A stretch of DNA of 32,000 bases. Origin: Metamycoplasma auris. Lineage in GTDB: Bacteria; Bacillota_I; Bacilli_A; Mycoplasmatales; Metamycoplasmataceae. Position 1 is the first letter of the stretch. Each line of letters starts with the position of its first letter. The DNA lies in contig NZ_QKUB01000001.1 of NCBI RefSeq assembly GCF_003253435.1, positions 62,555 to 94,554 on the forward strand. The letters are read 5' to 3'. Under the pieces are notes generated by a model that did not search any database, was not told the origin of the DNA, and saw nothing but the letters and a program-made list of their open reading frames with translations. Positions 474-27,312 of the stretch are shown piece after piece. Made by a program: the position numbers and the translations under genes.

Positions 474-503
474 GACTACGAATATGAAGGGTAGTCATTT
501 TTT
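474..503 (+). terminator. weak rho-independent terminator candidate after the DUF1524 gene
   Basis: GACTAC (474-479) pairs with GTAGTC (491-496) across an 11-nt loop, followed by ATTTTTT. Confidence 0.35.
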
Positions 504-566
504 ATTCCTTTTTTTAGACTTTTTTTGTCATTTTAGCATTATTTTTTAGTGTTTTTTTGCTATTTT
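498..566 (+). promoter_or_regulatory. helically phased T-tract array (predicted intrinsically bent DNA) abutting lipoprotein promoter 1
   Basis: T runs lie at 498-503, 509-515, 520-526, 531-534, 542-547, 552-558 and 563-566. Their start-to-start spacing is 11, 11, 11, 11, 10, 11 nt. The array ends at the -35 hexamer. Confidence 0.5.
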
Positions 567-592
567 GGCAAAAAAAAAAAAAAAAGTAAAAT
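565..592 (+). promoter_or_regulatory. sigma-70-type promoter with poly(A) spacer (A16), lipoprotein 1
   Basis: TTGGCA (565-570), an A run at 570-585 (16 A) plus G586, then TAAAAT (587-592). The spacer is 16 nt. The same architecture recurs at 1616-1644 and 6555-6583. Confidence 0.65.
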
Positions 593-715
593 TTGGACAT
601 AGCAATGCATAGTCCCTAAAAAACCAAACAAAAAATGTGGAGTCTAGACAATAAAAAATTGCTATATAAATTCAAATTAAGATATTTAAATATTTAAATT
701 AAATTAGGAAGTTAT

Positions 716-1558
716 ATGAAAAAACTAAACAAATTTTTATTTGCTTTAGGTTCCGTTGCTTCATTAGCATCACTACCATTAATTGCTGCAAAATGTGGTG
801 GTACTAAGGAAGAAAGCAAACCTGAAGCAAATAAGAATCCAAAAGATCCTAATCCTGGAAATAAGGATCCAAACACTAAAAATAAAATTAATTTAAGTTC
901 CTTAGAAAGTTCAGTTGTAGATAAGATAAAAAAATCAATCAAAAATAATAATGTAGAACAAGCAGAAATTTTAGATATTTTAAAAGAAGTTAAAGGTCTA
1001 GAAACTTTAAGATTCGGTGATTTTAAAACTCTTGATTTTAAAGATTTCAAATTAACAATTGAAGCTAATACATCCTCTTCTTTAATTGAAGGAAAATTTG
1101 AATTTTCAGAAGAAATTAAAAAAGAAGAGAATGCAAAATTAAAGACAGAATTAAATATGTTTTTAAAAGAAAAACTTGTTGCTAATGTAAAAGTAAAGAG
1201 AGCAGATTTGATTGACTCCTTAGACTTTGATAACGTTAAGACAAAAGCAGACCTTTACGATGTCAAAGAAGAAATTAAAGATTTCATTAATGATTACTAT
1301 TCTGTTTTTAGAGAAAAACTTAATGTTTTATCTAGAAATGTAGATTTCAATTTTAAAGAAGTATCTGAAGATGAACTAAGATTATTTATTCCTGAAGAAT
1401 GATTACTAGAAATTGAAAAAGAAACAAAACAAGAAGATAAGCATAAGGTATTCGAACAACTACTATTGAACACACAAGTAATCAAAGAGGCTTTACAAGC
1501 TCAATATCAAGAACAAACTAAAGAAGTTGAAAAATTATTCAATACAACCTTAAAATAA
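716..1558 (+). CDS. surface lipoprotein, poly(A)-promoter family member 1 (280 aa)
   Basis: ATG at 716 follows an AGGAAG Shine-Dalgarno sequence. The signal peptide is MKKLNKFLFALGSVASLASLPLIAAKC with lipobox LIAAKC. The listed ORF 716-1402 ends in TGA (Trp) and the frame continues to TAA at 1556-1558. The mature part is charged and Lys/Glu/Asn-rich. Confidence 0.85.
755..792 (+). repeat. 38-nt block identical to 6708-6745 (signal-peptide coding cassette shared by lipoproteins 1 and 3)
   Basis: GTTGCTTCATTAGCATCACTACCATTAATTGCTGCAAA is present at both positions. Near-identity continues through TGTGGTGGTAC.AAGGAAGAAA. Confidence 0.9.
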
Positions 1559-1570
1559 TCTAAAACTAGA

Positions 1571-1597
1571 ATACCGCTATTAAAGCGGTATTTTTTT
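1571..1597 (+). terminator. rho-independent terminator of lipoprotein 1
   Basis: ATACCGCT (1571-1578) pairs with AGCGGTAT (1584-1591) across a 5-nt loop, followed by a T7 run. Confidence 0.8.
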
Positions 1598-1615: not shown

Positions 1616-1644
1616 TTGGCAAAAAAAAAAAAAAAAAGTAAAAT
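1616..1644 (+). promoter_or_regulatory. sigma-70-type promoter with poly(A) spacer (A17), lipoprotein 2
   Basis: TTGGCA (1616-1621), an A run at 1621-1637 (17 A) plus G1638, then TAAAAT (1639-1644). The spacer is 17 nt. The upstream context TTTTGCTATTTTGGC is identical to locus 1. Confidence 0.65.
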
Positions 1645-1735
1645 TTTTCGAGTATTGCAAAACTGGCCCAAAGCAATACAAATAATACCTAATTTAAATA
1701 TTTAATTATTACTTATAAGGATTACATATTATTTT

Positions 1736-2197
1736 ATGAAAAAACTAAACAAATTTTTAATTGCTTTAGGTTCAGTTTCTTCTCTAGCAGCATTACCTTT
1801 AATTGCAGCATCATGTGATAAAACTAAAGAAGAATCCAAAGAAAGTAAAGATAATAAAAACAATGAAGGAAACTCAAACACAACAACTCCTTCAACCTCT
1901 CCCTCTGATTCATCTATAGAACAACCACAATCTGACCAACCATCTACATCGCCTTCAACATCTCCTAAATCTCCAGTCACTCCTAAAGGCGAGAGAGAAA
2001 GCAAAAAATATATTAGTAAACCTGCACTAGAAACAGTAAATAAACCAGGTAGTTCAATTCAAATTATTAAATTTGAAATTGGTACACCAAGTGGGGATAT
2101 ATTTTCAGAAGAACCCGGAGATAGAACAAGTTCCGATCGTGAAGATAGAATTGAGGATTGATTATATAAGAATAAAAAAACTATTAAAAAGCAATAG
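1736..2197 (+). CDS. surface lipoprotein, poly(A)-promoter family member 2 (153 aa), Pro/Ser/Thr-rich
   Basis: The signal peptide is MKKLNKFLIALGSVSSLAALPLIAASC (lipobox). The listed ORF ends at TGA 2159-2161 and the frame continues to TAG at 2195-2197. The mature region contains TTTPSTSPSDSSIEQPQSDQPSTSPSTSPKSPVTPKG. Confidence 0.8.
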
Positions 2198-2522: not shown

Positions 2523-4353
2523 ATGCTTGCAAGTAAAAATAAAAAATTTGGAATGCTTCTATCTTTAATGACTATAGCTACAATGCCAATCGTTACTCTT
2601 TCAGCTAGTTGTCAAACTAAAGCAAAAAATGATAATGCGCTTAATATGAATGTAACCAAAGCTTCATTTAAAAACTTCAACAAAGAATACACAATAAAAG
2701 ATGTAGATTTATCATTATATACAATTAAAGATGAAGAAGAAATGGTATATGTTGATTTAGATGAATTTTTAAAAAATTTAGAAGGACTATTTGATAATAA
2801 GTCATTTAGTTCTCGAATCGATGAAAAGAATAATAAGAAGTTCTATGAAATTAAAAATGATAAGAATGAAGTAGTAAATAGATTAGTTATTGACTGAGAA
2901 AACAATAAAATAACAACTCCAAGTACAAATTTCTTTTTTGAAATTCAAAAAGAACAACAACTAACAGATAATAGTCAATTCCTTGAAACAAACTATGAAA
3001 GCAAAAAGGATAACGAGAAATCTGAGGTAGTTTTTGATCTAGGTAAATATAAGATGGATATTTTATATAAGGATAAAAAAATCTTGTTACCTTTTAATGT
3101 ATTCAATACATTATTTATGAGTTATAGTTTTAATAACATTTATTGAAATGGCAAAAGTCTTACAAACCTAGAAGCAGGAATTGATGCACACGGTAATACT
3201 GAGAAGGAAATAAAAGCAAGAATTAAAAAAGACCAAGAAATAAAAAATAAACCTCAAACTAAAAAAGAGCGTGAAATTAACTTTAATCATCTAGCATTTG
3301 CAATGGATAATTTCTATGGTCTAAAATACCATAAAGAAATTAAGTCTTTTGAAGAATGAATCGGGCCTGATTATAAGCAAAAACTTCTTTCAATTGACCC
3401 TAAGGTATTCCATCAAGCATACATTGATATATTCCATAAAAAATTGAATGAATTACATACAAGAATTAATACATTATCATATTATGATGAATATGATGAA
3501 AAAGAAACAACAAGAGAAAAGTTAATCAAAGAAAAAGAAAAGAATTTTGGTAAATTCTTTAATGATTTCAATAAAAATAAGGCTGAGTTAGTTAAAAATT
3601 TTGAGGCTAAGTTTGGAAAGAAAATTGATGAATTTGGTCCAAATGACTATATTAGATACCATGGTAATACTGCGATTGTAACAACTCTTGGATTTGAAGA
3701 TGGAACTAAAGATGAAATAGCAAAAGAAAATGAAGCTTGAAAACACGACACTTATTTTCTAATGCGTCATTTAATGAAACAAATTGAAGAGAGAAATAAA
3801 AAAGCAAAGAATAAAGAAAAAGAAGGTAACAAAGAACTCAAAGAAATTAAAAATATTGTTCTAGATCTATCTTTAAATGGTGGTGGTAGTGTTAATTCAA
3901 TGGTTAGAGTTTTTAGGCTTTATGACTGATAAAGAAGTTTTGAATCGTGAATATAATATCCTTGATAAAAGAGCTGATCTAAGCAAATCTAAAGTCGATA
4001 CCAATGGTGATAAAAACTATGATAATGATGCATACACTAAGTATAATTGAAGTCTACTTGTTGGAATTAATACATTTAGTGCAGCTAATCAATTAACAAG
4101 TATTGTTAAAGAAATGGGTATTGCAAAAATCATTGGTAAACAAGCAGGAGGTGGTATGTCTGCAATTATGCCTCTTGTATTAAATGATGGAACAACAATT
4201 ACCATTAGTGGTCCAAATAATGCAGTCTTTGGTGAAAAAAATGAATCTATTGAAGGGGGAATTACACCTGATATTAATTTAGAATACAAAGACTTCTATA
4301 ATGATGATGCAATCGACAAGGCTCTAAATGAAGCTTCAAAACTAAGTAAATAA
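2523..4353 (+). pseudogene. S41-family (C-terminal processing / tail-specific type) peptidase lipoprotein, paralog 1, with a +1 frameshift at a T5 run
   Basis: The signal peptide is MLASKNKKFGMLLSLMTIATMPIVTLSASC. The frame starting at 2523 runs through TGA-Trp codons to TAA at 3930-3932, and the homologous C-terminal part continues in the +1 frame (open from 3877) to TAA at 4351-4353. The total is 1831 nt, which is 610 codons plus 1 nt. It is collinear with paralog 2 throughout and carries the motifs DLSLNGGGS, NTFSAAN and IIGKQAGGG. Confidence 0.8.
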
Positions 4354-6492: not shown

Positions 6493-6554
6493 GTCTAGAA
6501 GATCTACAAAAATTACTTATTTTCATTGATTTTATGCTCCAAAATTAATTACTT

Positions 6555-6583
6555 TGCGCAAAAAAAAAAAAAAAAAGTAAAAT
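6555..6583 (+). promoter_or_regulatory. sigma-70-type promoter with poly(A) spacer (A17), lipoprotein 3
   Basis: TGCGCA (6555-6560; alternatively TTGCGC at 6554-6559), an A run at 6560-6576 (17 A) plus G6577, then TAAAAT (6578-6583). Confidence 0.6.
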
Positions 6584-6668
6584 GGGGGATGTAACAAAAT
6601 AGGAATTGTTACGTTTAATGTATAACAAAAATTTAAATATTTAAATAGATTAAGGAGACTTAATAATT

Positions 6669-7214
6669 ATGAAAAAACTTAATAAGTTTATATTAGCTTT
6701 AGGAAGCGTTGCTTCATTAGCATCACTACCATTAATTGCTGCAAATTGTGGTGGTACCAAGGAAGAAAATAAAACTCCAACTGAAAAAGACCCAGGTACA
6801 GGTAAAAAAGAAGATGATAAAGATGGAGGCAAAAAAGATAATGAAAGTGAAGTAAAGGATGACAAAACCAAATTCACTGAAGCTTCTGATAAAGCAATCA
6901 AAACCTTAAAGGAATTAGCTGAAAAAGTTAATAAATATGAATACGAAAAAGAAAAAGCTAAAAAAGTAGAAGGTTTTGGAGATCTAACAGATGAACAATA
7001 TAAGGGTGTTAAAAAACAAATAACAGATCGTATTGATCATCTAGTTAAACAAATTGAAAGTTGAAAGACTAGCGGTCCTAAAAACATTGAAGAAGTTAAC
7101 TTAGCAAAAGGCAATCATAAAACATATGATGAAGCATATGATGCTATGATAAAAAGTCAATTAGATGGCGCTATAAAACAACTTGAATCAATTTCAAAAG
7201 ATTTAACAAAATAA
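6669..7214 (+). CDS. surface lipoprotein, poly(A)-promoter family member 3 (181 aa)
   Basis: An AAGGAG Shine-Dalgarno sequence precedes the start. The signal peptide is MKKLNKFILALGSVASLASLPLIAANC. The listed ORF ends at TGA 7062-7064 and the frame continues to TAA at 7212-7214. The mature part is Lys/Asp/Glu-rich. Confidence 0.85.
6708..6745 (+). repeat. 38-nt block identical to 755-792
   Basis: See the feature at 755-792. Confidence 0.9.
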
Positions 7215-7223
7215 TTACAACAA

Positions 7224-7255
7224 AAAAAGTTGGGCGATAATGCTCAACTTTTTAT
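7224..7255. terminator. bidirectional terminator between convergent lipoprotein 3 and rlmH
   Basis: AGTTGGGC (7228-7235) pairs with GCTCAACT (7242-7249) with one G:U pair, flanked by an A run upstream and a T run downstream. Confidence 0.6.
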
Positions 7256-7692: not shown

Positions 7693-9528
7693 TTAAGACT
7701 TATTGATTTTATTGTTTAGATGGTAGATAAGCATTTGGATATCAGCAGGGTTAATACCACTAATTCTTGTTGCTTGACCTAGAGTAGTTGGTCTAATTAG
7801 ATCAAGTTTTTGGCGTGCTTCAGTTGCGATATTTTGGATTGACCAATAGTCAAGATCTTTTGGAAGCTTAAGATTTTCTAATCTAAGCATTTTTTCTGCA
7901 GCACTTTCTTGTTTTTTTAGATAACCAAATAAACGCACTTGGGTAGTTATTTCATTAATGTAAGGATAGTCATCTCCGAGGATATCTTTTGGATCGACTG
8001 CAGGATTAGATAGAAGTTTTAGATATGATTGACCATTAATGACATTGTATTTAATTCCTAAATCACTTTTAGATGAGACATAAATATTTTTTAGTTCTTC
8101 AATTTTAGTTTGAATATTTTGATACTTATCTAGTATTTTTTTGTATTCATCCTGAGAAATCATCTTATTATCAAATGCATATTTTCCAAGTCTTTCATCA
8201 ACATTATCATTTCTTAAAAGAAGGCGATATTCAGCTCTACTTGTTAGCATCCGATATGGTTCAGAAGTACCTTTTGTTACAATGTCATCAATTAAAACAC
8301 CAATATATCCATCATTACGTTTAATTTCCATCACTGGTAATCCTTGGATTTTGTTTGCGGCATTAATTCCAGCAATAAGACCTTGAGCGGCTGCTTCTTC
8401 ATAGCCACTAGTTCCATTAGGTTGCCCAGCGGAAAAGAAATTTTCAATTAATTTTGTTTCAAGAGATTTATATAAAACTAAAGGATTGATTGCATCATAT
8501 TCAATAGCATAACCATACTTCTGAACTCTTGCGTTTTCAAGTCCAGGAATTGTTTTGATGATTTCGTCTTGTACATCAGCAGGCATTGAGGTTGAAAGGC
8601 CATTGATATACATAATGTCACCTTTTGTTGTTTCAGGTTCAAAGAATACATGATGCGTTTCTTTATCTTGAAATCTTACAATTTTGTCCTCAATACTTGG
8701 ACAATACCTAGGTCCAACTCCAACAATTACTCCTGAATAAAGTGAACTTTTATCAAAATTTCTTAGAATAATTTCTTTAGTTTCCTTCGTTGTATGGGTT
8801 AAGAAACAAGAAGTTTGTTCATCAAGTTTAATATTAGTTTTAGATGAAAAGCATAATTCTGTCTTGTCAAGAATTTCTTTTTCTACTTTTGAAAAATCAA
8901 TGCTATCTGTATAAATACGACATGGAGTACCTGTTTTTAATCTTTGAAGTTCAAATCCATATTTTGCTAAATTACTTGAAAGTGTGGAACTATTTTTTTC
9001 GCCATCTGGTCCATCATTTTTAATATCCATTCCTCTTAGGATTCTTGAATTCATATATACACCAGTTGTCATAATGACAGCAGATGCATATATATTCCCA
9101 TTTGCTACTGTTTTGATCCCAATACATTTTTTATTTTCTACAATCAAATCAGATGCTTCATCTTCAATTAGAGTAATGTTATTTTCTTTTCTAACTGCTT
9201 CAAGAATAATTTGCGAATATTTTTCTTTATCAATTTGTGCTCTTAATGATCAAACAGCTGGACCTTTTGATGAATTTAACATCTTAATTTGAATCATTGA
9301 CCTATCAGCAAAAATACCCTGAACACCACCTAGGGCATCAATTTCACGGGTAATAATTCCTTTTGCTGATCCTCCGATTGAAGGATTACAAGGAAGCATT
9401 GCAAGTTTATTGATATTTAGTGTTACTAAAGCAACTTTTAGATTTCTTTTTGCTAAAGCAAAAACTGCCTCAATTCCGGCATGGCCGCCACCAATTACAA
9501 TGGCATCGAATTTATTTATATTATTCAT
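7693..9528 (-). CDS. mnmG: tRNA uridine 5-carboxymethylaminomethyl modification enzyme MnmG (GidA)
   Basis: ORFs 7693-9147 and 9250-9528 share one frame and are joined through TGA at 9250-9252, giving 611 aa. The N-terminal FAD motif is [14 protein letters not shown] and GidA-like sequence continues throughout. Confidence 0.95.
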
Positions 9529-9536
9529 TATATTAA

Positions 9537-9863
9537 CTACTTAATTTCATTTAGAATTTTTTCAATTCTAGCTGCTTCAGGTTCAACTTGATCAATCAAG
9601 AAAACTAATTCTGGTAATTTTTTGTATTTTCAACTTTTAGCAACAACTGAACGAATAAATGGAGTCATTGAAGTGATTTTTTCAAAGTATCTTTCTTTAT
9701 CTTTGAACAAAGTAATAAATACTTTTGCATGTGAGCCATCATTTGATAGGATAACATCATTAATTGCAATGTTTGTTACATCAAAATCCTTTAAATCATA
9801 AAAACTATTTCCAATTAATTCTAATAGTAATTGTTTTTTTCTTTCATGCATAATTGTGTTCAT
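9537..9863 (-). CDS. rbfA: ribosome-binding factor A
   Basis: Listed ORF 9630-9863 ends in TGA (Trp). The frame continues ([31 protein letters not shown]) to TAG at 9537-9539, giving 108 aa. It sits in the conserved position downstream of infB. Confidence 0.8.
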
Positions 9864-9865
9864 AA

Positions 9866-11671
9866 TTAAACTAATACATCCTCATAAAATTTTAATTCGT
9901 CATCTAACTCTATTTTATCAAAATCCTTTATGTGAGTTCCGAAATCAAAACCCTTTTCAACGATCTTAACATCATTTTTTTCAATCTTCAAGGAGTTTAT
10001 TGTACCCTTAAAAATACTCTTGCCTTTTCTAAAGACTTCTACTTTAGAAAATTCCTTAACAACACCATCAATTACCTTACATCCAGCAATCGTTCCAACT
10101 TTAGAATAAAAGAATAATTTGATAATGTTAGCAACACCAATTTGTCTTTCTTCATAAACTGGTTCTTTTAGCGTACTAATTATTGCCTCAACCTCTTCAA
10201 CAATCTTATAGATAACATTATGTGAAATAATTTTGATTTTCTTTCCATCTGCTAATTTTTTAATTTCAGCTGAAGCATTATTGTTAAATAAATAGATTCT
10301 TGCATTTGATGTTTCAGCTAATAGCAAATCAGCTTTAGTTAATTCTCCAGATGTTGCTCTAATTACATTAACATTAATTTCATGATTCTTAATTTTAATT
10401 AATGATTGTTTAATTGCTTCAGCAGTACCCTGAACGTCAGTCTTAATAATAATATTTAATGTTTTTTTACCATCTTTGATTGAGAATGAGTTTCTTTCGT
10501 TTAACTCTCTTTGTTTGTTAATGAATGATTTTTCTTCAGCGATTTTCTTTGCAAATTTTTCATCGCTGATCACAACAAATTTGTCTCCAGAAAGAGGATT
10601 TTTATTTAACCCTGTAATGATACATGGATCTCCTGGCAGTGCTTTTTCAAGAGGTTTTCCATCAAATGTCATTAAGCTTCTTATATTTCCATATTGCCCG
10701 CCTGCGATAATAAAGTCACGAGGTAAAAGTGTTCCATTTTCAACGATAATTGTTGTAACAATTCCTCTTCCTTTATCAATTTTGGATTCAATAACAGTTC
10801 CAAATGGGTCACGATTTAGATTAGCTTTTAAATCAAGCAGGTCAGCCTGTAAGAATATTGCTTCTAGAAGACTATCAATATTTTGATTCTGTGCAGCAGA
10901 ACCGTAAATAAATTGAACATCTCCTCCCCATTCTTCACAAACTATGTTGTGTTCACTTAATTGACTTTTAACTTTCTCAGGGTCAGCACCTGGTTTGTCC
11001 ATTTTATTAACAAAGATAATAATTGGTAATTCTGCTGCCTTAGCATGATCAATTGCTTCAATAGTTTGAGGTTTAACTCCATCATCTGCAGCAACGACGA
11101 TAATAACAATATCAGTAACTTTAGCACCACGGGCACGCATTTCAGTAAAAGCTTCATGCCCAGGAGTGTCAAGGAAAGTAATTTTTCTTCCGTAGTAGTC
11201 AACTTGATAAGCACCAGTGTGTTGAGTGATGCCACCAAATTCAGAAGCAAGAACGTTACTTTTTCTTATTTTATCAATTAATGTTGTTTTACCATGGTCA
11301 ACATGCCCCATTATTGTAACAATTGGAGGTCTAGAAAAAAGGTCATTTGGATCATTGACAATTTCGAGTTTATCAAATAGATTTTCAGCGTCTACGCTTT
11401 CTTCTTTTTTAAAGTCTAGATCGTACATTAAACAAAGTTCAGCAATTTCTTCTTCATTTAAAAAAGTATTAATTGTTTTGATAATTCCTTTTTTGAAATA
11501 ATAAGTCAATATTTTTGCTGCCGTTTGATTTATTTTTGCACTGAACTCAGAAATAGTCATTGGCCCACTAAAAATAAAAACTCCATTTTGAACTTTAGTT
11601 TCAACACTATTAAGTTTTTCTTTAATGATTTCTACATTTGAGATTCTTTTATTATTTTTTTGTTTAGCCAT
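9866..11671 (-). CDS. infB: translation initiation factor IF-2
   Basis: 601 aa. The GTPase motifs [14 protein letters not shown] and NKMD are present, within the nusA-ylxR-infB-rbfA gene order. Confidence 0.95.
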
Positions 11672-13655: not shown

Positions 13656-14851
13656 TTATTTTGCACTTATTCATCTTGCTTTCTTAATTTTGATTTTGGT
13701 TCAAGTTTTTTGCTTGATTTTTATACCAATGTAATGTACAAATACAACAACTGGTATACCCCAAACATATGAAAATGCAATATCACTAACCCAATGACCG
13801 CGGTTAACAATTAAAGCAAAAGTCATAGACCAAAAATAAATCTGGTAAATAATAATTCAAATTACTTTCTTTCAATTTAATTTTTTATTGTTTGAAAGAA
13901 AGAAGAAAAATATAAGTCCAATGTTAAGAGTAGCAATTACATGTCCTGAAGGAAATGCTCATCGAAATCACTTATTAAAAAAATTCATTCTTGGATCAGG
14001 ATGAAAGGCTTTACCATTAATGACATACCAAGGAAGTTTGATGTATGAAGGGATATTTCAACGAAATACACCATCACCATAATTAAAACCATGTCTAAAG
14101 ACATTTTGATTTAAATAATAACTAACTCATTCAGGATGCTCTTGTTTTACACTTTCAAGTAAATCTCCATAAATAACATTGTAGTAGTATGGCCTTGATG
14201 TCATCCCTTTAAGCAAAAGGATAATAAAATAAGAAATTAAGTTAAATAAAATAAATTTAATTGATTCAACTCAATATTTGTTTGTTAAAAAATCCTTTGA
14301 TTTAGAAAATTTAAGATGTAAAAACAAACCTCCGAAAATAAAGAAAACTGAATTTAGAAGAATACTTAAAATTAATGCTACTTTACGATATATAAACTTT
14401 GTAGCATATACCGCATCTCCCCCCCAGTTCCAAAACCGTTGCCGGTTCTTATTTCATTATGTGCACTTAATGAAATCATCAAAATATAGATTATTGGATA
14501 TATAAAATAAACTAAAGGTAATATTCATTTAGTTTTAGATCAAAAATTTCTTTGGTTATTCTTAGTCTTGTATGAATAAAGACTTTCAATGATAACCATA
14601 ACAACAAAAAACAAAAAGACACCTAATAGCGTGTTACCTGAAATCTCAAAAAAAGCTGATCAATATCTTATAAATTCAGATTTTAAAAATCCTTGTTCAA
14701 AGAATTTAGCAAGTTTCAAATCAACTGAATAAGGAGATGAAATAATAAAGCTAATTAGTTAAATAAAAAATAATAGAAGTAAGCCAAAAAATACTAAATT
14801 AAAGATTGTGTCTTTTTCTTTTTTAATTTTATAACTTACTTTGTTATCCAT
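13656..14851 (-). pseudogene. PAP2-superfamily (type 2 phosphatidic acid / lipid phosphatase) membrane protein, disrupted by an in-frame TAA and a frameshift at a G7 run
   Basis: The minus-strand translation shows the three PAP2 motifs: KGMTSRP, PSGH (AFPSGHVIA) and NRGHWVSD (SRxxxxxHxxxD type). The ATG at 14849-14851 opens a frame that meets TAA at 14759-14761 after 30 codons. The same frame reopens, then must shift at C7 (14419-14425, G7 on the coding strand) to reach the motif-bearing frame ending at TAA 13656-13658. Confidence 0.75.
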
Positions 14852-14984
14852 TTTTAATCTTTTCTTATGTTTGCTAGTATTAATAATATCAATAAAATAA
14901 ATAAATTATTAATTAAATTCTAGATGTAAAAATTCAAATAAGAGACGACTAGTAAAAGAGTTTAAATTCCTAAATTAACTTATT

Positions 14985-15025
14985 AAAAAAAACCTCAATA
15001 GCATTTGAACTATGAGGTTTTTTAT
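14985..15025 (-). terminator. rho-independent terminator downstream of tex (minus strand)
   Basis: AACCTCA (14991-14997) pairs with TGAGGTT (15013-15019), flanked by an A8 run and a T run. Confidence 0.6.
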
Positions 15026-15080
15026 TTAACTGATGAAAAGGTTATTGTATTAACCTTGTAATTAATTGATATTCAATAAT

Positions 15081-19180: not shown

Positions 19181-19215
19181 TAAATGTAACTTATAATACA
19201 CATTTATGATAAAAT
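19181..19215 (+). promoter_or_regulatory. candidate operator plus promoter of the HTH-methyltransferase gene
   Basis: The inverted repeat TAAATGT (19181-19187) / ACATTTA (19200-19206) brackets TATAAT (19192-19197). An extended -10 TGATAAAAT (19207-19215) ends 8 nt before the ATG at 19224. No Shine-Dalgarno sequence is visible. Confidence 0.35.
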
Positions 19216-19223
19216 GAATAATC

Positions 19224-20273
19224 ATGAAATCAGAATTATTAAGATCATTTGGAACTAAAATCAAAACATTACGTGAAAAAAGAGGATTATCTCAAAATGA
19301 GCTTTCGCAGTTATGCAATTTTAAAAGAGAATATATTTCAAAAATTGAAAACGGAAGTTCTAACGTTACAATTGAAACTATACAAAAATTAGCTAATTCC
19401 TTAAATATAAAAATGAGTCAATTACTTGAAGATAATAATGACCTAAAGTCAAAACCTTTTGTAAAATGAGCTGGTGGTAAGAATCAAATTCTTAATAAAT
19501 TAATTGAATTTATACCAAAAGAATTTAATCGATACTATGAGCCATTTATTGGTGGAGGAGCACTCCTTTTTAATCTTAAGCCTAATACAATAATAATCAA
19601 TGATAGTAATAAGGAATTAATGTATGCATATCAATGTTTTTTAGATAAATACAAACTTAATAAGTTAATTAAAGAATTAGAGATGCATGAGTTAAATCAT
19701 TCTGAAGAATATTATTATCAAGTAAGAAATTTAGATCAGAGCAATTCTTTTGAGAAATTAAAAGACTATCAAAGGGCAGCAAGGTTAATATATTTAAATA
19801 AGGCTTGTTTTAATGGACTTTATAGAGTTAATAGTAAAGGTTTTTATAACACTCCATATGGAAATAAGCAAAAAATTAATGCTTTTGATAAAGAAAATTT
19901 TTTAGATATTTATAAGTATTTTTCTATTTCTAATGTAGCTATTAAAAATGAAGACTTTGAAGAATGTGTTAAAGATGCAAAAAAAGGTGATTTTGTTTAT
20001 TTTGATCCTCCTTATGACAGTTACACTGACAAGAATTCATTTACAAATTATGATTCTAAAAAATTTGGTAAGGATGAACAAATTAGATTAAGAAATGTTG
20101 CTCTTAAGTTATCAAAAAGAGGTGTAAAAGTGATGCTTTCAAACCACAACACTCCCTTTATAAATGAATTGTATAAGGATTTTAATAAACACGTTATTGA
20201 GGCAAGAAGAATAATTAACTCTGATGCTAAAAGAAGAGGAAATGTTGAAGAATTAATAATTACTAACTTCTAG
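19224..20273 (+). CDS. XRE-family HTH domain fused to a Dam-type (D12 class, alpha group) N6-adenine DNA methyltransferase
   Basis: ORFs 19224-19469 and 19620-20273 share one frame and are joined by TGA at 19467-19469, giving 349 aa. Residues 1-~70 form an HTH (LSQNELSQLCNFKREYISKIENG). These are followed by PFVKWAGGK, EPFIGGGA (FxGxG) and FDPPY motifs. Confidence 0.85.
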
Positions 20274-20285
20274 TAAAATTAAATT

Positions 20286-21143
20286 ATGAATAAAAATATT
20301 GACGAATTACTCAATACAATGAAAAAAGGAATTGAAGATTGAGATTACTATGTTAATTTTTCAAAAGTAGAATGAAATTTTATTTCAAAAAGAGAAAAAC
20401 TGGATAAATTAAATTCAATAATTGAGTCAACAAATATAGAAAGCGATTTTACAAATCTAATAAAGAACGACCATTCCATTTTATAAATAGTACCTATTTT
20501 ATTAGGAACAAGAGATACAAAAATATTAATAAATGATGAAGGCAGAATTATTGAGTTTGATTTTAAAAATATTAACCATACTTTTGAGGAGTATGCAAAT
20601 TTTTTAGAAGAAATTGGATTATTCAAATTTCTTCAGAAAATGAAAATGTCTTCCCTTATCGACTATGTTTTAGGAATTGAGGTTGGACTTGATAGTAATT
20701 CAAGAAAAAATCGTAATGGCAAAAAGATGGAGCAATTGGTTGAAAAATATTTAGTCGATTCTAATTTCAAAAAAGAAGTTGATTTTTTTACCCAAATGAC
20801 CACTAAAAAGCTTATAGATATTTTTAAAATTGATATTTTAAATGAGTTACCAATTAAAAAATTTGACTTTGTTATAAAGTATAAAAAACAAATATATGCA
20901 GTTGAATGTAATTATTATAAGAGTGGTGGTTCGAAAGTTTCTGAAATAGTAAGGTCTTATAAAAATCTATTAGATGATTTAAGAAAGATCAATAACTTCC
21001 ATTTTCTATGAATTACGGACGGATTTGGTTGAATTAAAGAAAAAAACCATCTAAAAGATGCCTTATTATCAATAGATAATATTTTTAATCTTGATGATTT
21101 AGAGAAGAAGGGAATACTTAATATATTAGAATCAATAAAGTAG
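20286..21143 (+). pseudogene. DpnII/MboI-family type II restriction endonuclease with an in-frame TAA at codon 67
   Basis: The 286-codon frame starts 12 nt after the methyltransferase stop. Family-typical blocks are present: VPILLGTR, GIEVGLDSNSRKNRNGK, VECNYYKSGGSK and FLWITDGFGW. TAA at 20484-20486 interrupts HSIL*IVPILLG. All other breaks are TGA-Trp codons. Confidence 0.75.
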
Positions 21144-25635: not shown

Positions 25636-27312
25636 CTAGAATGCTGATCTTGAAGAATTTCTAGATGATGACACTCTCATTTTCTTAACTTTATCTTTTA
25701 ATTTGTTAGGCAAGTGATTTTCATTATCATGAATCATTGAGCCTTCAGCAAATTTATAGTATTGATAATTTTTAGTTAATTTATCAGTATTTCAATTTTT
25801 AATTTCTTGATTAAATTCCTTTGCGTTATGAAACATTTGAGCCATACTTTCAACCATTTTTGTATCTCAATTTCCAATTGGCTTATTAAATTTGACAGCC
25901 CCATAAAACATATAACTCATATCAGTAACTGATTCGGTTTTTCATTTGTTTAATTCTTGATTGAATTGTAAAGCGTTTTCAAACATACGAGACATATTTT
26001 TTACTTTGGATGTATTTCAATCATTAATTGAATGATTGAATGTTTGCGCATTGTTAAACATTCATGACATATCAGTTACTTTTTCAGTTTTTCATTTTGA
26101 GATGTCTTGGTTAAAGTTCTTAGCATTATAAAACATAGCGCGCATGTTTTCGACATTATTAGTATTTCAATCTGATAGTTTTCCATTAAATTTTTCAGCA
26201 AAACTAAACATATTTGAAAAAGATTTTACTTTTTCAGTTTTTCATTTTGAAATATCCCCACTGAACTTCTTGGCTCTTTCAAACACAGATTCCATATTAG
26301 TTATATTTGATGTATCTCATTCATCAATTCCATCAACATTTTCGCTCTCTAGATCTCTAAAAGCACCTTCTAAACTTGTTATTAATGTTGGAAGTTTCTT
26401 AGGTAATTTTTTAACATTTTTTGGAAAAGAAGTAATTACAAATTCATCACTTCTAGAATCATGATAAAATCCAATTTCAAGGATTTCAGTAGAATCTAAA
26501 TCCTTTAAATTTCTATCATAAGTAGATTTAATATTTCCTCTATTATCAAGGTATTTAGTAGCTTTTTTTCCAGGACTAATTTCTCCGATTTCTAATTGTA
26601 GTTCATCGCCATCAATTTGAAGATTAAAAGTTGAAGGTTGTGTTTGTTCTTTTTCTTTTTCTTCCTCTTTTTCCTTTTTTTCTTCTTTTTGTTTCTTTCG
26701 TTCTTTATAAATTGAATAGAATTCTTTTTTGCTATCTTCATCTTTTAATGATAATTTTGAATGCTTACGATTTGATTTACTAATAACAGCTTCTAAAATC
26801 TCAGAGAAGTTTTGGGTAGTAGTTAGCTTTCCCTTAAATTCTTTAGCTCATAAAGATTGAAGTTCTTTCTTTGTTTCTTCTTTGTATTGGGATTTTGTTT
26901 GTATTTGAAAACTTACTTCTAAAACACCTAAATATTTCTCTTTTATATTTGATGAAAATTTTGCCTTACTATTTGATGTTTCTTCTAACTTTAAACTTTC
27001 AAAAATACTACTATCAATAGATGGATATTTAGATTTTAAAGCATCAATAATTTCTTTGCTTGTTGGTTTTGAATCGTTAGTAATAATCAATCCTAATTCT
27101 TTATTCTCAAATAACTTATCTAGGTCTATAGATGCCATTTCAGACGGCATGTAATTATTTTTATTAGAACTCTCATCGTCCTGTAAATTTTTATCAGTTA
27201 TAGGTTTCTTATCTTTCTTGCTTAATAATATAGCTGTTGGAATGGCAATGGTTGGAACTAAAATTGCGCTTGCAGTTGAAATGCCAATGATTAATTTCTT
27301 ATTTTTTGTCAT
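25636..27312 (-). CDS. DUF285 / BspA-like repeat membrane-anchored surface protein (558 aa)
   Basis: I checked the frame codon by codon from ATG 27310-27312 to TAG 25636-25638, and the only breaks are TGA-Trp codons. The N-terminus has a hydrophobic anchor (LIIGISTASAILVPTIAIPTAILL) with no lipobox Cys. A Glu/Lys-rich linker follows, then repeats of the form W.T..V..M..MF..A..FN..I... Confidence 0.85.
25795..26319 (-). repeat. seven tandem 75-nt (25-aa) DUF285-type coding repeats
   Basis: The repeat-initial Trp codons (all TGA) recur every 75 nt from 26317-26319 down to 25792-25794. Exact 20-mers recur between alternate units, for example TTTTCAGTTTTTCATTTTGA at 26081-26100 and 26231-26250. 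Confidence 0.85.

What the first reader, a model, noticed from the sequence alone, without database searches (positions are those of the whole stretch)
565..592. Lipoprotein promoter 1: the -35/-10 spacer is a 16-A homopolymer (candidate slipped-strand phase switch)
The sequence is TTGGCA-A15-G-TAAAAT, so the homopolymer makes up nearly the whole spacer, and any gain or loss of one A changes hexamer spacing and helical phasing. This is the mechanism established for the Mycoplasma hyorhinis vlp promoters. Here, though, the downstream leader (MKKLNKFLFALGSVASLASLPLIAAKC) is not Vlp-like. From memory it resembles Vsp/Vpma-type leaders, whose known switching is recombinase-based. This copy has A16 (16-nt spacer) while the two paralogs have A17 (17-nt spacer). 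The three genes may therefore be in different ON/OFF states in the sequenced clone.
Basis: partly seen in the sequence, partly recalled or inferred. Interest (0 to 1): 0.75.

Follow-up and report, generated by a model that had tools for sequence, protein, structure and literature searches.

The report
Poly-A promoter spacers of lipoprotein genes
Three surface-lipoprotein genes of the goat-ear bacterium Metamycoplasma auris each have a promoter whose spacer is a run of 16-17 A's, a slippage-prone design already known from other mycoplasmas for switching surface proteins on and off; switching itself was not shown here.

Summary
The sequence is TTGGCA (565-570), A15, G, TAAAAT (587-592), with an A-run of 16 at 570-585. 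Two paralogous promoters carry A17 (1621-1637 and 6560-6576). These are the only long A-runs in the window.

The window comes from Metamycoplasma auris, which reads TGA as Trp. The three genes are annotated as variable surface lipoproteins. Their signal peptide is Vsp/Vpma-type, not Vlp-type.

In M. auris 15026, eight related promoters have pure A tracts of 10 to 16 bases. The ortholog of the third window promoter has A14 there and A17 here, and two assemblies confirm the A14. The two genomes differ by about 15% in housekeeping genes.

There is no recombinase in the 32 kb window. Every gene has its own promoter and all face the same way.

The best reading is a Vlp-like slipped-strand promoter switch acting on a Vpma-like lipoprotein family. 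The tract-length polymorphism is shown; the ON/OFF switching is inferred. Spacers of 16 and 17 nt could both be active, so I cannot support the claim that the three genes sit in different states. One caution is that the T15 spacer of the M. agalactiae vpma promoter was shown experimentally not to switch.

This is a new member of a known kind, of moderate interest.

The parts
474..496 (+). Hairpin GACTAC-11 nt-GTAGTC followed by a T-run. It is the likely terminator of the upstream GmrSD-like gene (ends at 444) and insulates the lp1 promoter.
   Evidence: Read directly. GmrSD_C Pfam hit. Not picked up by the terminator scan because the loop exceeds 8 nt.
510..570 (+). A 32-nt unit repeated 1.9 times. 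The second copy ends in the -35 hexamer and the first copy carries TTAGCA in its place.
   Evidence: Tandem Repeats Finder, 82% matches.
565..570 (+). -35 hexamer TTGGCA of lp1.
   Evidence: The same hexamer precedes the tract in 8 of 11 family promoters, and a ninth has TTGACA.
570..585 (+). A16 homopolymer. Together with G586 it forms the 16-nt spacer.
587..592 (+). -10 hexamer TAAAAT of lp1.
   Evidence: GTAAAAT follows the tract in 9 of 11 family promoters.
599..665 (+). Inverted repeat ATAGCAAT (599-606) / ATTGCTAT (658-665) at the predicted 5' end of the lp1 mRNA. This is the long-loop version of a hairpin found in every family member.
   Evidence: This copy is weak on its own (z = -0.45); the other copies give z from -1.8 to -5.2.
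682..699 (+). 5'-UTR box ATATTTAAATATTTAAAT shared by the family.
   Evidence: 8 matches with up to 1 mismatch against 1.0 expected, 6 of them in the three lp UTRs.
706..711 (+). Ribosome-binding site AGGAAG.
   Evidence: Read directly.
716..1558 (+). lp1, a 280-aa variable surface lipoprotein (PZW01541.1). The signal peptide with lipobox IAAKC is encoded by 716-796.
1568..1594 (+). Intrinsic terminator of lp1.
   Evidence: 11 pairs followed by a T-run.
1616..1644 (+). lp2 promoter: TTGGCA, A-run 1621-1637 (A17), G, TAAAAT.
   Evidence: The Logan contig L015 starts exactly at 1621 and carries A17.
1652..1679 (+). 5'-proximal hairpin of lp2, GTATTGC / GCAATAC.
   Evidence: -7.1 kcal/mol, z = -1.8.
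1736..2197 (+). lp2, a 153-aa variable surface lipoprotein (P0007).
6554..6583 (+). lp3 promoter: TTGCGC or TGCGCA, A-run 6560-6576 (A17), G, TAAAAT.
   Evidence: The ortholog in strain 15026 has TTGGCA and A14.
6587..6616 (+). 5'-proximal hairpin of lp3, GATGTAACAA / TTGTTACGTT.
   Evidence: -9.6 kcal/mol, z = -5.2.
6629..6648 (+). 5'-UTR box AAATTTAAATATTTAAATAG of lp3.
6669..7214 (+). lp3, a 181-aa variable surface lipoprotein (PZW01546.1).
7224..7253 (+). Intrinsic terminator of lp3.

Best explanation
Each gene of the M. auris variable-surface-lipoprotein family is its own transcription unit. It is bounded by the previous gene's terminator and its own terminator, and driven by a sigma-70-type promoter in which a pure poly-A tract fills almost the whole space between TTGGCA and TAAAAT. 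A run of 14-17 identical bases is prone to slipped-strand mispairing during replication. Gain or loss of one A changes both the distance and the rotational phase between the two hexamers. Transcription of each gene is therefore raised, lowered or shut off independently and reversibly, giving combinatorial variation of surface lipoproteins. Functionally this is the M. hyorhinis Vlp, M. arthritidis MAA2 and predicted M. bovoculi Vpb design, here attached to lipoproteins with the Vsp/Vpma-type signal peptide. Shown here: the anatomy, its repetition at every family member, the purity and length polymorphism of the tracts, and the absence of an inversion system at the locus. Inferred: that the hexamers are the real promoter, that slippage is frequent within a clone, and which lengths are ON. 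By the 17 +/- 1 rule, runs of 16-18 would be active and runs of 10-15 inactive.
For: 1) The same cassette (-35, pure A-run, G, -10, 5' hairpin, ATATTTAAATATTT box, RBS, conserved leader) stands before all three window genes and eight genes of strain 15026.
2) Tract length is the variable feature: 16, 17 and 17 in the window; 10, 13, 14, 14, 14, 15 and 16 in 15026. The hexamers on either side are kept: TTGGCA in 8 of 11 and TTGACA in one, and GTAAAAT in 9 of 11.
3) At the orthologous lp3 promoter the window has A17 and 15026 has A14. A14 is identical in the NCBI 454/Illumina assembly and in a Logan assembly of a separate run, SRR29904085, so it is not a 454 artefact.
4) The two genomes differ by 14-17% at the nucleotide level in mnmG and infB, and the flanks of the paralogous promoters differ by 20-30%. 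Yet all 11 tracts are uninterrupted A, which argues that purity is maintained by selection.
5) The tracts are specific to this family. No other A-run of 10 or more occurs in the 32 kb window. Among 185,579 species representatives, only M. auris has multiple TTGGC-A(10 or more)-GTAAAAT sites.
6) In 15026 only one of eight tracts (A16) falls in the active spacing range, the pattern expected of a family that is mostly OFF.
7) The Logan contig of the window strain stops exactly at the 5' edge of the lp2 A17 tract. The expected repeat-induced break lies 14 nt further upstream, so this fits mixed tract lengths in the reads.
8) There is precedent. Spacer indels switch vlp, maa2 and vmm (PMC2268961, PMC10502178), and M. 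bovoculi vpb genes each have a homopolymer promoter interpreted the same way (PMC3931370).
Against: No transcription start site, expression data or within-clone length data exist. The Logan contig break could equally come from PCR or sequencing stutter at a 17-base homopolymer. All three window tracts (16, 17, 17) lie in the normally active range, so this window shows no clear ON/OFF contrast. Strain 15026 gave identical tract lengths at two promoters (both A14) in two sequencing efforts, so the modal length is stable there. The promoter of the related vpma system in M. agalactiae has a T15 spacer that was shown experimentally not to generate OFF variants (PMC2268961). A homopolymer spacer may therefore simply be a conserved feature of this promoter lineage. 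In many mycoplasmas the -35 element contributes little, in which case spacing would matter less. Lengths from the 454-based 15026 assembly that lack a second assembly (10, 13, 15, 16) may be miscounted.
Confidence: 0.6

Rival explanations
1. The poly-A spacer is a structural feature inherited by this promoter lineage, for example an intrinsically bent or easily melted spacer of a strong lipoprotein promoter. It is not a switch. Length differences between copies and strains are then slow mutational drift, and the short-tract copies are decaying promoters.
For: The M. agalactiae vpma expression promoter reads TTGCTA-T15-A-TATAAT, and its tract plays no role in variation (PMC2268961). The vpma promoter and the lp2 and L001_2600 promoters share the 16-mer AAATTTTTGCTATTTT. 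All three window tracts have near-optimal spacing. Two sequencing efforts on 15026 give the same tract lengths at two promoters, both A14.
Against: Spacers of 10-14 nt in six of the eight 15026 promoters are incompatible with a fixed-geometry structural role. Those tracts are still pure A and still flanked by intact hexamers, which is not what decay looks like. The shared 16-mer is not significant on its own: 31 of 300 Markov shuffles reach 16. A run of 16-17 A's is mutable in any case, especially in mollicutes, which from general knowledge lack MutS/MutL mismatch repair.
Confidence: 0.2
2. The family switches as its Vsp/Vpma relatives do, by site-specific recombination in the conserved 5' UTR, with a recombinase encoded elsewhere. 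The poly-A tract would be incidental.
For: The signal peptide is Vsp/Vpma-type. A conserved, partly palindromic box ATATTTAAATATTT lies in every 5' UTR and begins with TTGATATTTA in the 15026 copy L001_3551, as does the vpma recombination site. In 15026 a single gene has an lp1-like N-terminus and an lp2-like C-terminus, which shows recombination between family members.
Against: No recombinase gene lies in the 32 kb window, whereas xer1 is adjacent to the vpma genes in L013. Every gene has its own promoter, whereas the vpma locus has one promoter for 11 or more genes. All family genes at each locus point the same way, so inversion cannot exchange them. The UTRs are only about 70% alike, whereas the vpma 72-nt sites are nearly identical. 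The vpma site has no match in the window even with 3 mismatches.
Confidence: 0.07
3. The real promoter lies elsewhere, for example a -10-only promoter nearer the start codon. The TTGGCA-A(n)-TAAAAT element would then be part of the upstream terminator and T/A-rich intergenic filler.
For: The window region holds no more promoter-like sites than shuffled sequence does, 37 against 43 +/- 5. A weaker site lies at 645-672. The 5' UTR implied by the proposed promoter is long, 85-123 nt.
Against: The element is conserved as a unit across paralogs whose surrounding sequence has diverged. A hairpin always starts 7-9 nt after it, which is where a transcript would begin. Long conserved 5' UTRs are normal for the related vpma genes (PMC2268961).
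Confidence: 0.08

Closest known systems
Vlp system of Mycoplasma (Mesomycoplasma) hyorhinis
   Same: Several lipoprotein genes each have their own promoter. A poly-A tract of about 17 lies between the -35 and -10 elements. The promoter, 5' UTR and signal-peptide block is conserved while the mature parts are divergent. Switching by insertion or deletion of A's was shown by Citti and Wise 1995, as cited in PMC2268961 and PMC10502178.
   Different: The proteins are not Vlp: the VlpA and VlpC N-terminal models score far below their cutoffs. There is no tandem-repeat region III. The genes are scattered over at least four loci rather than one array. The organism belongs to a different genus. Switching has not been demonstrated here.
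Vpma (M. agalactiae) and Vsp (M. bovis) systems
   Same: The signal peptide is of the same type (NF033817; 71% identity to a Vpma leader; AAKC lipobox in lp1). The 5' UTR is long and conserved. The promoter has a homopolymer -35/-10 spacer, T15 in vpma.
   Different: Vpma and Vsp use one promoter for the whole locus, an adjacent Xer1/Mbr tyrosine recombinase, nearly identical recombination sites and genes in both orientations (PMC2268961). None of these features is present here. The vpma T-tract does not switch expression.
MAA2 of Mycoplasma (Metamycoplasma) arthritidis
   Same: It belongs to the same genus as M. auris. It is a surface lipoprotein whose ON/OFF state depends on nucleotide insertion or deletion in the -35/-10 spacer (Washburn 1998, as cited in PMC2268961).
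   Different: It is a single gene, and from memory the tract is poly-T. No sequence comparison could be made here.
Vpb array of Mycoplasma bovoculi; Vmm and Vmc of the mycoides cluster
   Same: These are contingency loci in which each lipoprotein gene has a repeat-containing promoter, predicted or shown to give combinatorial phase variation (PMC3931370, PMC10502178).
   Different: The repeat is poly-T or (TA)n rather than poly-A. The proteins and leaders are unrelated.

Membership tests
Promoter-spacer homopolymer phase switch (Vlp/MAA2 mechanistic class) | A homopolymer occupies the spacer between -35-like and -10-like hexamers. | tested here: met
   TTGGCA-A15-G-TAAAAT, repeated at lp2 and lp3 and at eight 15026 promoters.
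Promoter-spacer homopolymer phase switch (Vlp/MAA2 mechanistic class) | Each family gene is an independent transcription unit with its own tract. | tested here: met
   Terminators lie after lp1 and lp3, and there is one cassette per gene.
Promoter-spacer homopolymer phase switch (Vlp/MAA2 mechanistic class) | Tract length is polymorphic between copies and between strains while the flanking hexamers are kept. | tested here: met
   Lengths range from 10 to 17 across 11 promoters. The orthologous pair has A17 against A14, confirmed by a second assembly.
Promoter-spacer homopolymer phase switch (Vlp/MAA2 mechanistic class) | Tract length is heterogeneous within a clonal population at high frequency. 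| tested here: inconclusive
   The only proxy is that the Logan contig of the window strain breaks at the 5' edge of the lp2 A17 tract. Sequencing stutter would produce the same break.
Promoter-spacer homopolymer phase switch (Vlp/MAA2 mechanistic class) | Tract length correlates with transcript and protein ON/OFF state, and the start site lies downstream of the tract. | not testable with these tools
   This needs RNA or protein data from clonal variants.
Vlp protein family (M. hyorhinis) | Vlp N-terminal region (NCBIfam NF045729 and NF045730). | tested here: not met
   Scores of 18-32 bits against cutoffs of 175 and 160.
Vlp protein family (M. hyorhinis) | C-terminal region of in-frame tandem repeats (region III). 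| tested here: not met
   There are no coding tandem repeats in lp1, lp2 or lp3.
Variable surface lipoprotein, Vsp/Vpma type (NCBIfam NF033817) | Conserved 29-residue lipoprotein signal peptide. | tested here: met
   Scores of 46.6, 49.3 and 41.0 bits against a cutoff of 22. The M. agalactiae Vpma leader P0006 matches the family profile at E = 3e-9.
Vsp/Vpma inversion system | An adjacent tyrosine recombinase (xer1/mbr). | tested here: not met
   No recombinase was found among the ORFs scanned; the remaining large ORFs of the 32 kb window read as housekeeping genes. A Phage_integrase gene is present next to the vpma genes in L013. A gene elsewhere in the genome cannot be excluded.
Vsp/Vpma inversion system | A single expression promoter, with the other genes silent and in both orientations. 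| tested here: not met
   Each gene has its own promoter and all genes are co-oriented. L013 has one promoter and genes on both strands.
Vsp/Vpma inversion system | Nearly identical recombination sites in the 5' UTR of all genes. | tested here: not met
   The UTRs are about 70% alike. The vpma site has no match in the window with up to 3 mismatches. Only a short shared box is present.

The most novel reading that the evidence does not exclude
The M. auris family is a true relative of the Vsp/Vpma cassette. It has the same leader, and its promoter lineage also uses a homopolymer spacer. Here, though, every gene kept its own promoter and switches by slippage instead of Xer1-mediated inversion. 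The two classic mycoplasma switching modes would then be interchangeable solutions built on one ancestral cassette. That cassette may have moved between species that share the goat ear canal. Each transcript would in addition begin with a hairpin that is maintained by compensatory changes.
Probability: 0.25. Interest if true: 0.5.

Novelty: new member of a known kind. Interest (0 to 1): 0.36.

Why it matters
If the tracts do switch, M. auris would be a second well-defined multi-gene example, after M. hyorhinis Vlp, of poly-A promoter-spacer phase variation. M. auris is a commensal that shares the goat ear canal with M. agalactiae. The genes concerned carry the Vpma/Vsp-type leader, so the case links the slippage and inversion strategies on related gene cassettes. 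It also offers a natural comparison for asking why the vpma T-tract does not switch. In practice, the tract lengths would predict which lipoproteins a given isolate expresses. The finding does not reveal a new mechanism.

Tried and rejected
lp1 and lp3 are not on record in the contig index, so the A16 tract of the reported copy could not be checked in a second assembly.
- A leader-profile search of the protein database returned only two short proteins. The breadth of the leader family across species was therefore not mapped.
- The genome-collection scan with TTGGC-A10-N(0-10)-GTAAAAT found several sites only in M. auris 15026. The seven other hits are single chance matches. The pattern is strict, so relatives with other hexamers would be missed.
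- The metagenome scan gave 38 hits, none of them mycoplasma-like.
- A covariance model of the 5' hairpin built from three 15026 copies was too sequence-specific. It recovered only other 15026 copies, not the window hairpins. The covariation argument therefore stays qualitative.
- MAFFT alignment of the hairpins was not structure-consistent.
- The 16-mer shared with the vpma promoter was tested against Markov shuffles and is not significant on its own, with 31 of 300 shuffles reaching 16.
- Rfam has no family matching the leader regions.
- The idea that the short 15026 tracts are 454 artefacts was rejected for two promoters, both A14, by the identical Logan contigs. It remains possible for A10, A13, A15 and A16.

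Full report
**Observation.** The window reads TTGGCA (565-570), fifteen further A's (571-585), G586 and TAAAAT (587-592). Two more copies of the same core exist. One is TTGGCA-A16-G-TAAAAT with an A-run of 17 at 1621-1637. The other is an A-run of 17 at 6560-6576 followed by GTAAAAT, with a weaker -35 (TGCGCA or TTGCGC).

These are the only A-runs of 10 or more in 32 kb. The window holds 17 A12 words against 1.7 expected, and none of 100 shuffles reaches that count. The simple promoter scan ranks the first two sites among its best, at 10 of 12 matches. It finds no excess of promoter-like sites in this AT-rich region overall, so the hexamers alone prove little.

**Organism and genes.** TGA is read as Trp. 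The protein downstream of the tract is 100% identical to PZW01541.1, annotated as variable surface lipoprotein of Metamycoplasma auris. The three genes, lp1 (716-1558), lp2 (1736-2197) and lp3 (6669-7214), share a leader MKKLNKF..LGSV.SLA.LPLIAA(K/S/N)C and have unrelated mature parts with no tandem repeats.

NCBIfam NF033817, the Vsp/Vpma-type signal-peptide model, scores 41-49 bits against a cutoff of 22. The VlpA and VlpC N-terminal models reach only 18-32 bits against cutoffs of 160-175. A profile of 13 M. auris leaders retrieves an M. agalactiae Vpma leader, MKKSKFLLLGSVASMAAIPFVAAKCGGTKEE, at E = 3e-9.

**Anatomy of the cassette.** Aligning the upstream regions of the three window genes and eight genes of strain 15026 shows one repeated unit:
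- the terminator hairpin of the previous gene and a T-run;
- a -35 hexamer (TTGGCA in 8 of 11 copies, TTGACA in one, degenerate in two);
- a pure A tract, then G, then TAAAAT (TACAAT in one copy, ATAAAAT in another);
- 7-9 nt later, an inverted repeat;
- a box ATATTTAAATATTT(R)AAT about 20-45 nt before the start codon;
- an AGGA ribosome-binding site and the conserved leader.

The inverted repeat sits where the transcript should begin. Its arms differ between copies but stay complementary: GTAGCAAT/ATTGCTAC, GTAACAA/TTGTTAC, GTAGCAGT/ACTGCTAT, AGCATAT/ATATGCT and GTATTGC/GCAATAC. lp1 and one 15026 gene carry long-loop versions. Individual z-scores run from -1.8 to -5.2, except for lp1 at -0.45. 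A covariance model built from three 15026 copies was too sequence-specific to align them all, so this covariation is described rather than scored. From general knowledge of Firmicutes, I read the hairpin as a 5'-terminal mRNA stem-loop that protects against 5'-end-dependent decay. That reading is inference.

**Comparative evidence on the tract.** Among one genome for each of 185,579 species, only M. auris 15026 carries TTGGC-A(10 or more)-GTAAAAT more than once, with six sites on three contigs. Seven other hits are isolated chance matches. A metagenome scan added nothing relevant.

Tract lengths in 15026 are:
- 10, 13, 16 and 14 on contig 6;
- 14 on contig 8;
- 14 and 14 on contig 11;
- 15 on contig 16, the TTGACA/TACAAT variant.

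The contig-8 site is the ortholog of the window's lp3 promoter. It lies in the same position between the S41 lipoprotein gene and the lp3 ortholog, next to rlmH and mnmG. It has A14 where the window has A17.

The 15026 assembly used 454 reads (PMC3707572), so I checked it against Logan assemblies of a separate run, SRR29904085. A 6,895-nt contig is 100% identical, including the A14 tract, and the second contig-11 promoter also agrees.

The two M. auris genomes are far apart, at 83% nucleotide identity in mnmG and 86% in infB. Even so, all eleven tracts are uninterrupted A and most keep both hexamers. Purity maintained over that much divergence argues for selection on the tract. Length variation from 10 to 17 argues that length is the free variable. 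In 15026 only one of eight copies (A16) falls in the 17 +/- 1 range, which is what a mostly-OFF phase-variable family looks like.

**Hint of heterogeneity.** Logan contigs of SRR4235353 are 100% identical to the window, so they come from the same strain. One contig ends where a 39-mer shared by the lp1 and lp3 leaders begins, as a k = 31 graph should. The lp2 contig starts exactly at the first A of the A17 tract (window 1621). The only repeat-induced break expected nearby, a 32-mer shared with the lp1 promoter, would place the start at 1607. An extra branch or coverage gap at the tract edge fits reads with 18 or more A's. PCR or sequencing stutter at a 17-mer would give the same result, so I count this as suggestive only.

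**Rivals.** The first rival is Vsp/Vpma-style inversion. For comparison I fetched an M. agalactiae vpma locus (L013). It has a tyrosine recombinase gene next to the vpma genes, at least eleven vpma 5' ends on both strands with an almost identical 72-nt 5' UTR, and a single promoter. The M. auris loci have none of these features. No recombinase was found among the window ORFs. Each gene has its own promoter, the genes are co-oriented, the UTRs are only about 70% alike, and the vpma site has no match in the window.

The second rival is more serious. The single vpma promoter reads TTGCTA-T15-A-TATAAT, so it is also a homopolymer spacer. Xer1 knock-outs never gave OFF colonies, so that tract does not switch expression (PMC2268961). 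A homopolymer spacer may therefore be an inherited trait of this promoter lineage. A 16-mer, AAATTTTTGCTATTTT, is shared between the vpma promoter and two M. auris promoters, but 31 of 300 Markov shuffles do as well, so it is only a lead. Against this rival, spacers of 10-14 nt with intact hexamers and pure tracts are hard to reconcile with a fixed structural role.

**What is and is not supported.** It is supported that this is a Vlp-like promoter design attached to a Vpma-like lipoprotein family, that tract length is polymorphic, and that inversion is unlikely here. High-frequency change within a clone and its effect on transcription are not shown. The suggestion that lp1 (16-nt spacer) and lp2/lp3 (17-nt spacers) sit in different states is not supported, because both spacings are normally permissive.

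**Comparison with known systems and novelty.** Spacer-indel switches are established for vlp, maa2 and vmm (PMC2268961, PMC10502178). They have been predicted from genome sequence for the M. bovoculi vpb array (PMC3931370). The M. auris genome note does not mention this family (PMC3707572), and a literature search found nothing else. I file this as a new member of a known kind, with one modest twist: the combination of a Vpma-type leader with a per-gene homopolymer promoter.

Noticed in passing
window 599-665, 1652-1679, 6587-6616; L001 2516-2544, 3474-3502, 4566-4592; L016 5053-5080; L014 about 932-950: Every family transcript would begin with a hairpin that starts 7-9 nt after the -10 element. 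The arm sequences differ between copies but remain complementary, which looks like compensatory change. It may be a 5'-terminal mRNA stabiliser.
   Followed up: partly
window 682-699, 1696-1709, 6629-6648: A partly palindromic box ATATTTAAATATTT lies in each lp 5' UTR: 8 matches against 1 expected, 6 of them in the three UTRs. In the 15026 copy L001_3551 it begins TTGATATTTA, as does the vpma recombination site. Its function is unknown.
   Followed up: partly
L016 64-693 compared with window 716-1138 and 2035-2197: At the lp1/lp2 position, strain 15026 has a single 209-aa gene. Its N-terminal half resembles lp1 and its C-terminal 50 residues resemble lp2. It is a chimera or deletion between paralogs, which suggests domain shuffling within the family.
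   Followed up: partly
window 7693-11671 compared with L016: The window genome and M. auris 15026 are only 83% (mnmG) and 86% (infB) identical at the nucleotide level. That is species-level divergence, although both genomes are labelled M. auris.
   Followed up: partly
window 2523-4353 (frameshift near 3907-3911): The first of two S41-peptidase-like lipoprotein genes is split into two frames by one extra T in a T5 run, relative to the intact 609-aa ortholog in 15026. It could be a pseudogene, a sequencing error or a coding-tract switch.
   Followed up: partly
L001 829-1005 (15026 contig 6): The same promoter core with only A10 (TTTGGC-A10-GTAAAAT) precedes a 445-aa lipoprotein with a different, Vlp-like leader (…SLPLIAISC). 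That protein is related to the window's DUF285 lipoprotein (25636-27312), which itself has no A tract.
   Followed up: no
L013 about 9398-9425 (M. agalactiae CP039447.1): The single vpma promoter is TTGCTA-T15-A-TATAAT. It shares the 16-mer AAATTTTTGCTATTTT with the M. auris lp2 and L001_2600 promoters, which is not significant on its own (31 of 300 shuffles).
   Followed up: partly
window 510-570: A 32-nt unit is duplicated in tandem just upstream of, and running into, the lp1 -35 hexamer. The first copy has TTAGCA where the second has TTGGCA.
   Followed up: no
window 19206-21143: A Dam-type (D12) methyltransferase is fused to an HTH domain. It is followed by a DpnII-family endonuclease ORF that covers only profile positions 122-274, so the restriction gene is probably truncated.
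   Followed up: no
window 14205-15080 (minus strand), C7 at 14419-14425: This stretch has no ORF of 80 aa or more. Its minus-strand translation reads like a membrane protein interrupted by a stop, and it contains the only G/C homopolymer of the window. It may be a pseudogene or a second contingency tract.
   Followed up: no
L023-L028, L032, L036, L038, L047, L052, L054, L056-L058 (metagenome contigs): An unrelated repeated element, GCTTGATTTGGC-A10-14-GTAAAATCAAGC, has inverted flanks and a variable A-run. It recurs in contigs of 42-51% GC, all from metagenomes Ga0307509 and Ga0307510.
   Followed up: no
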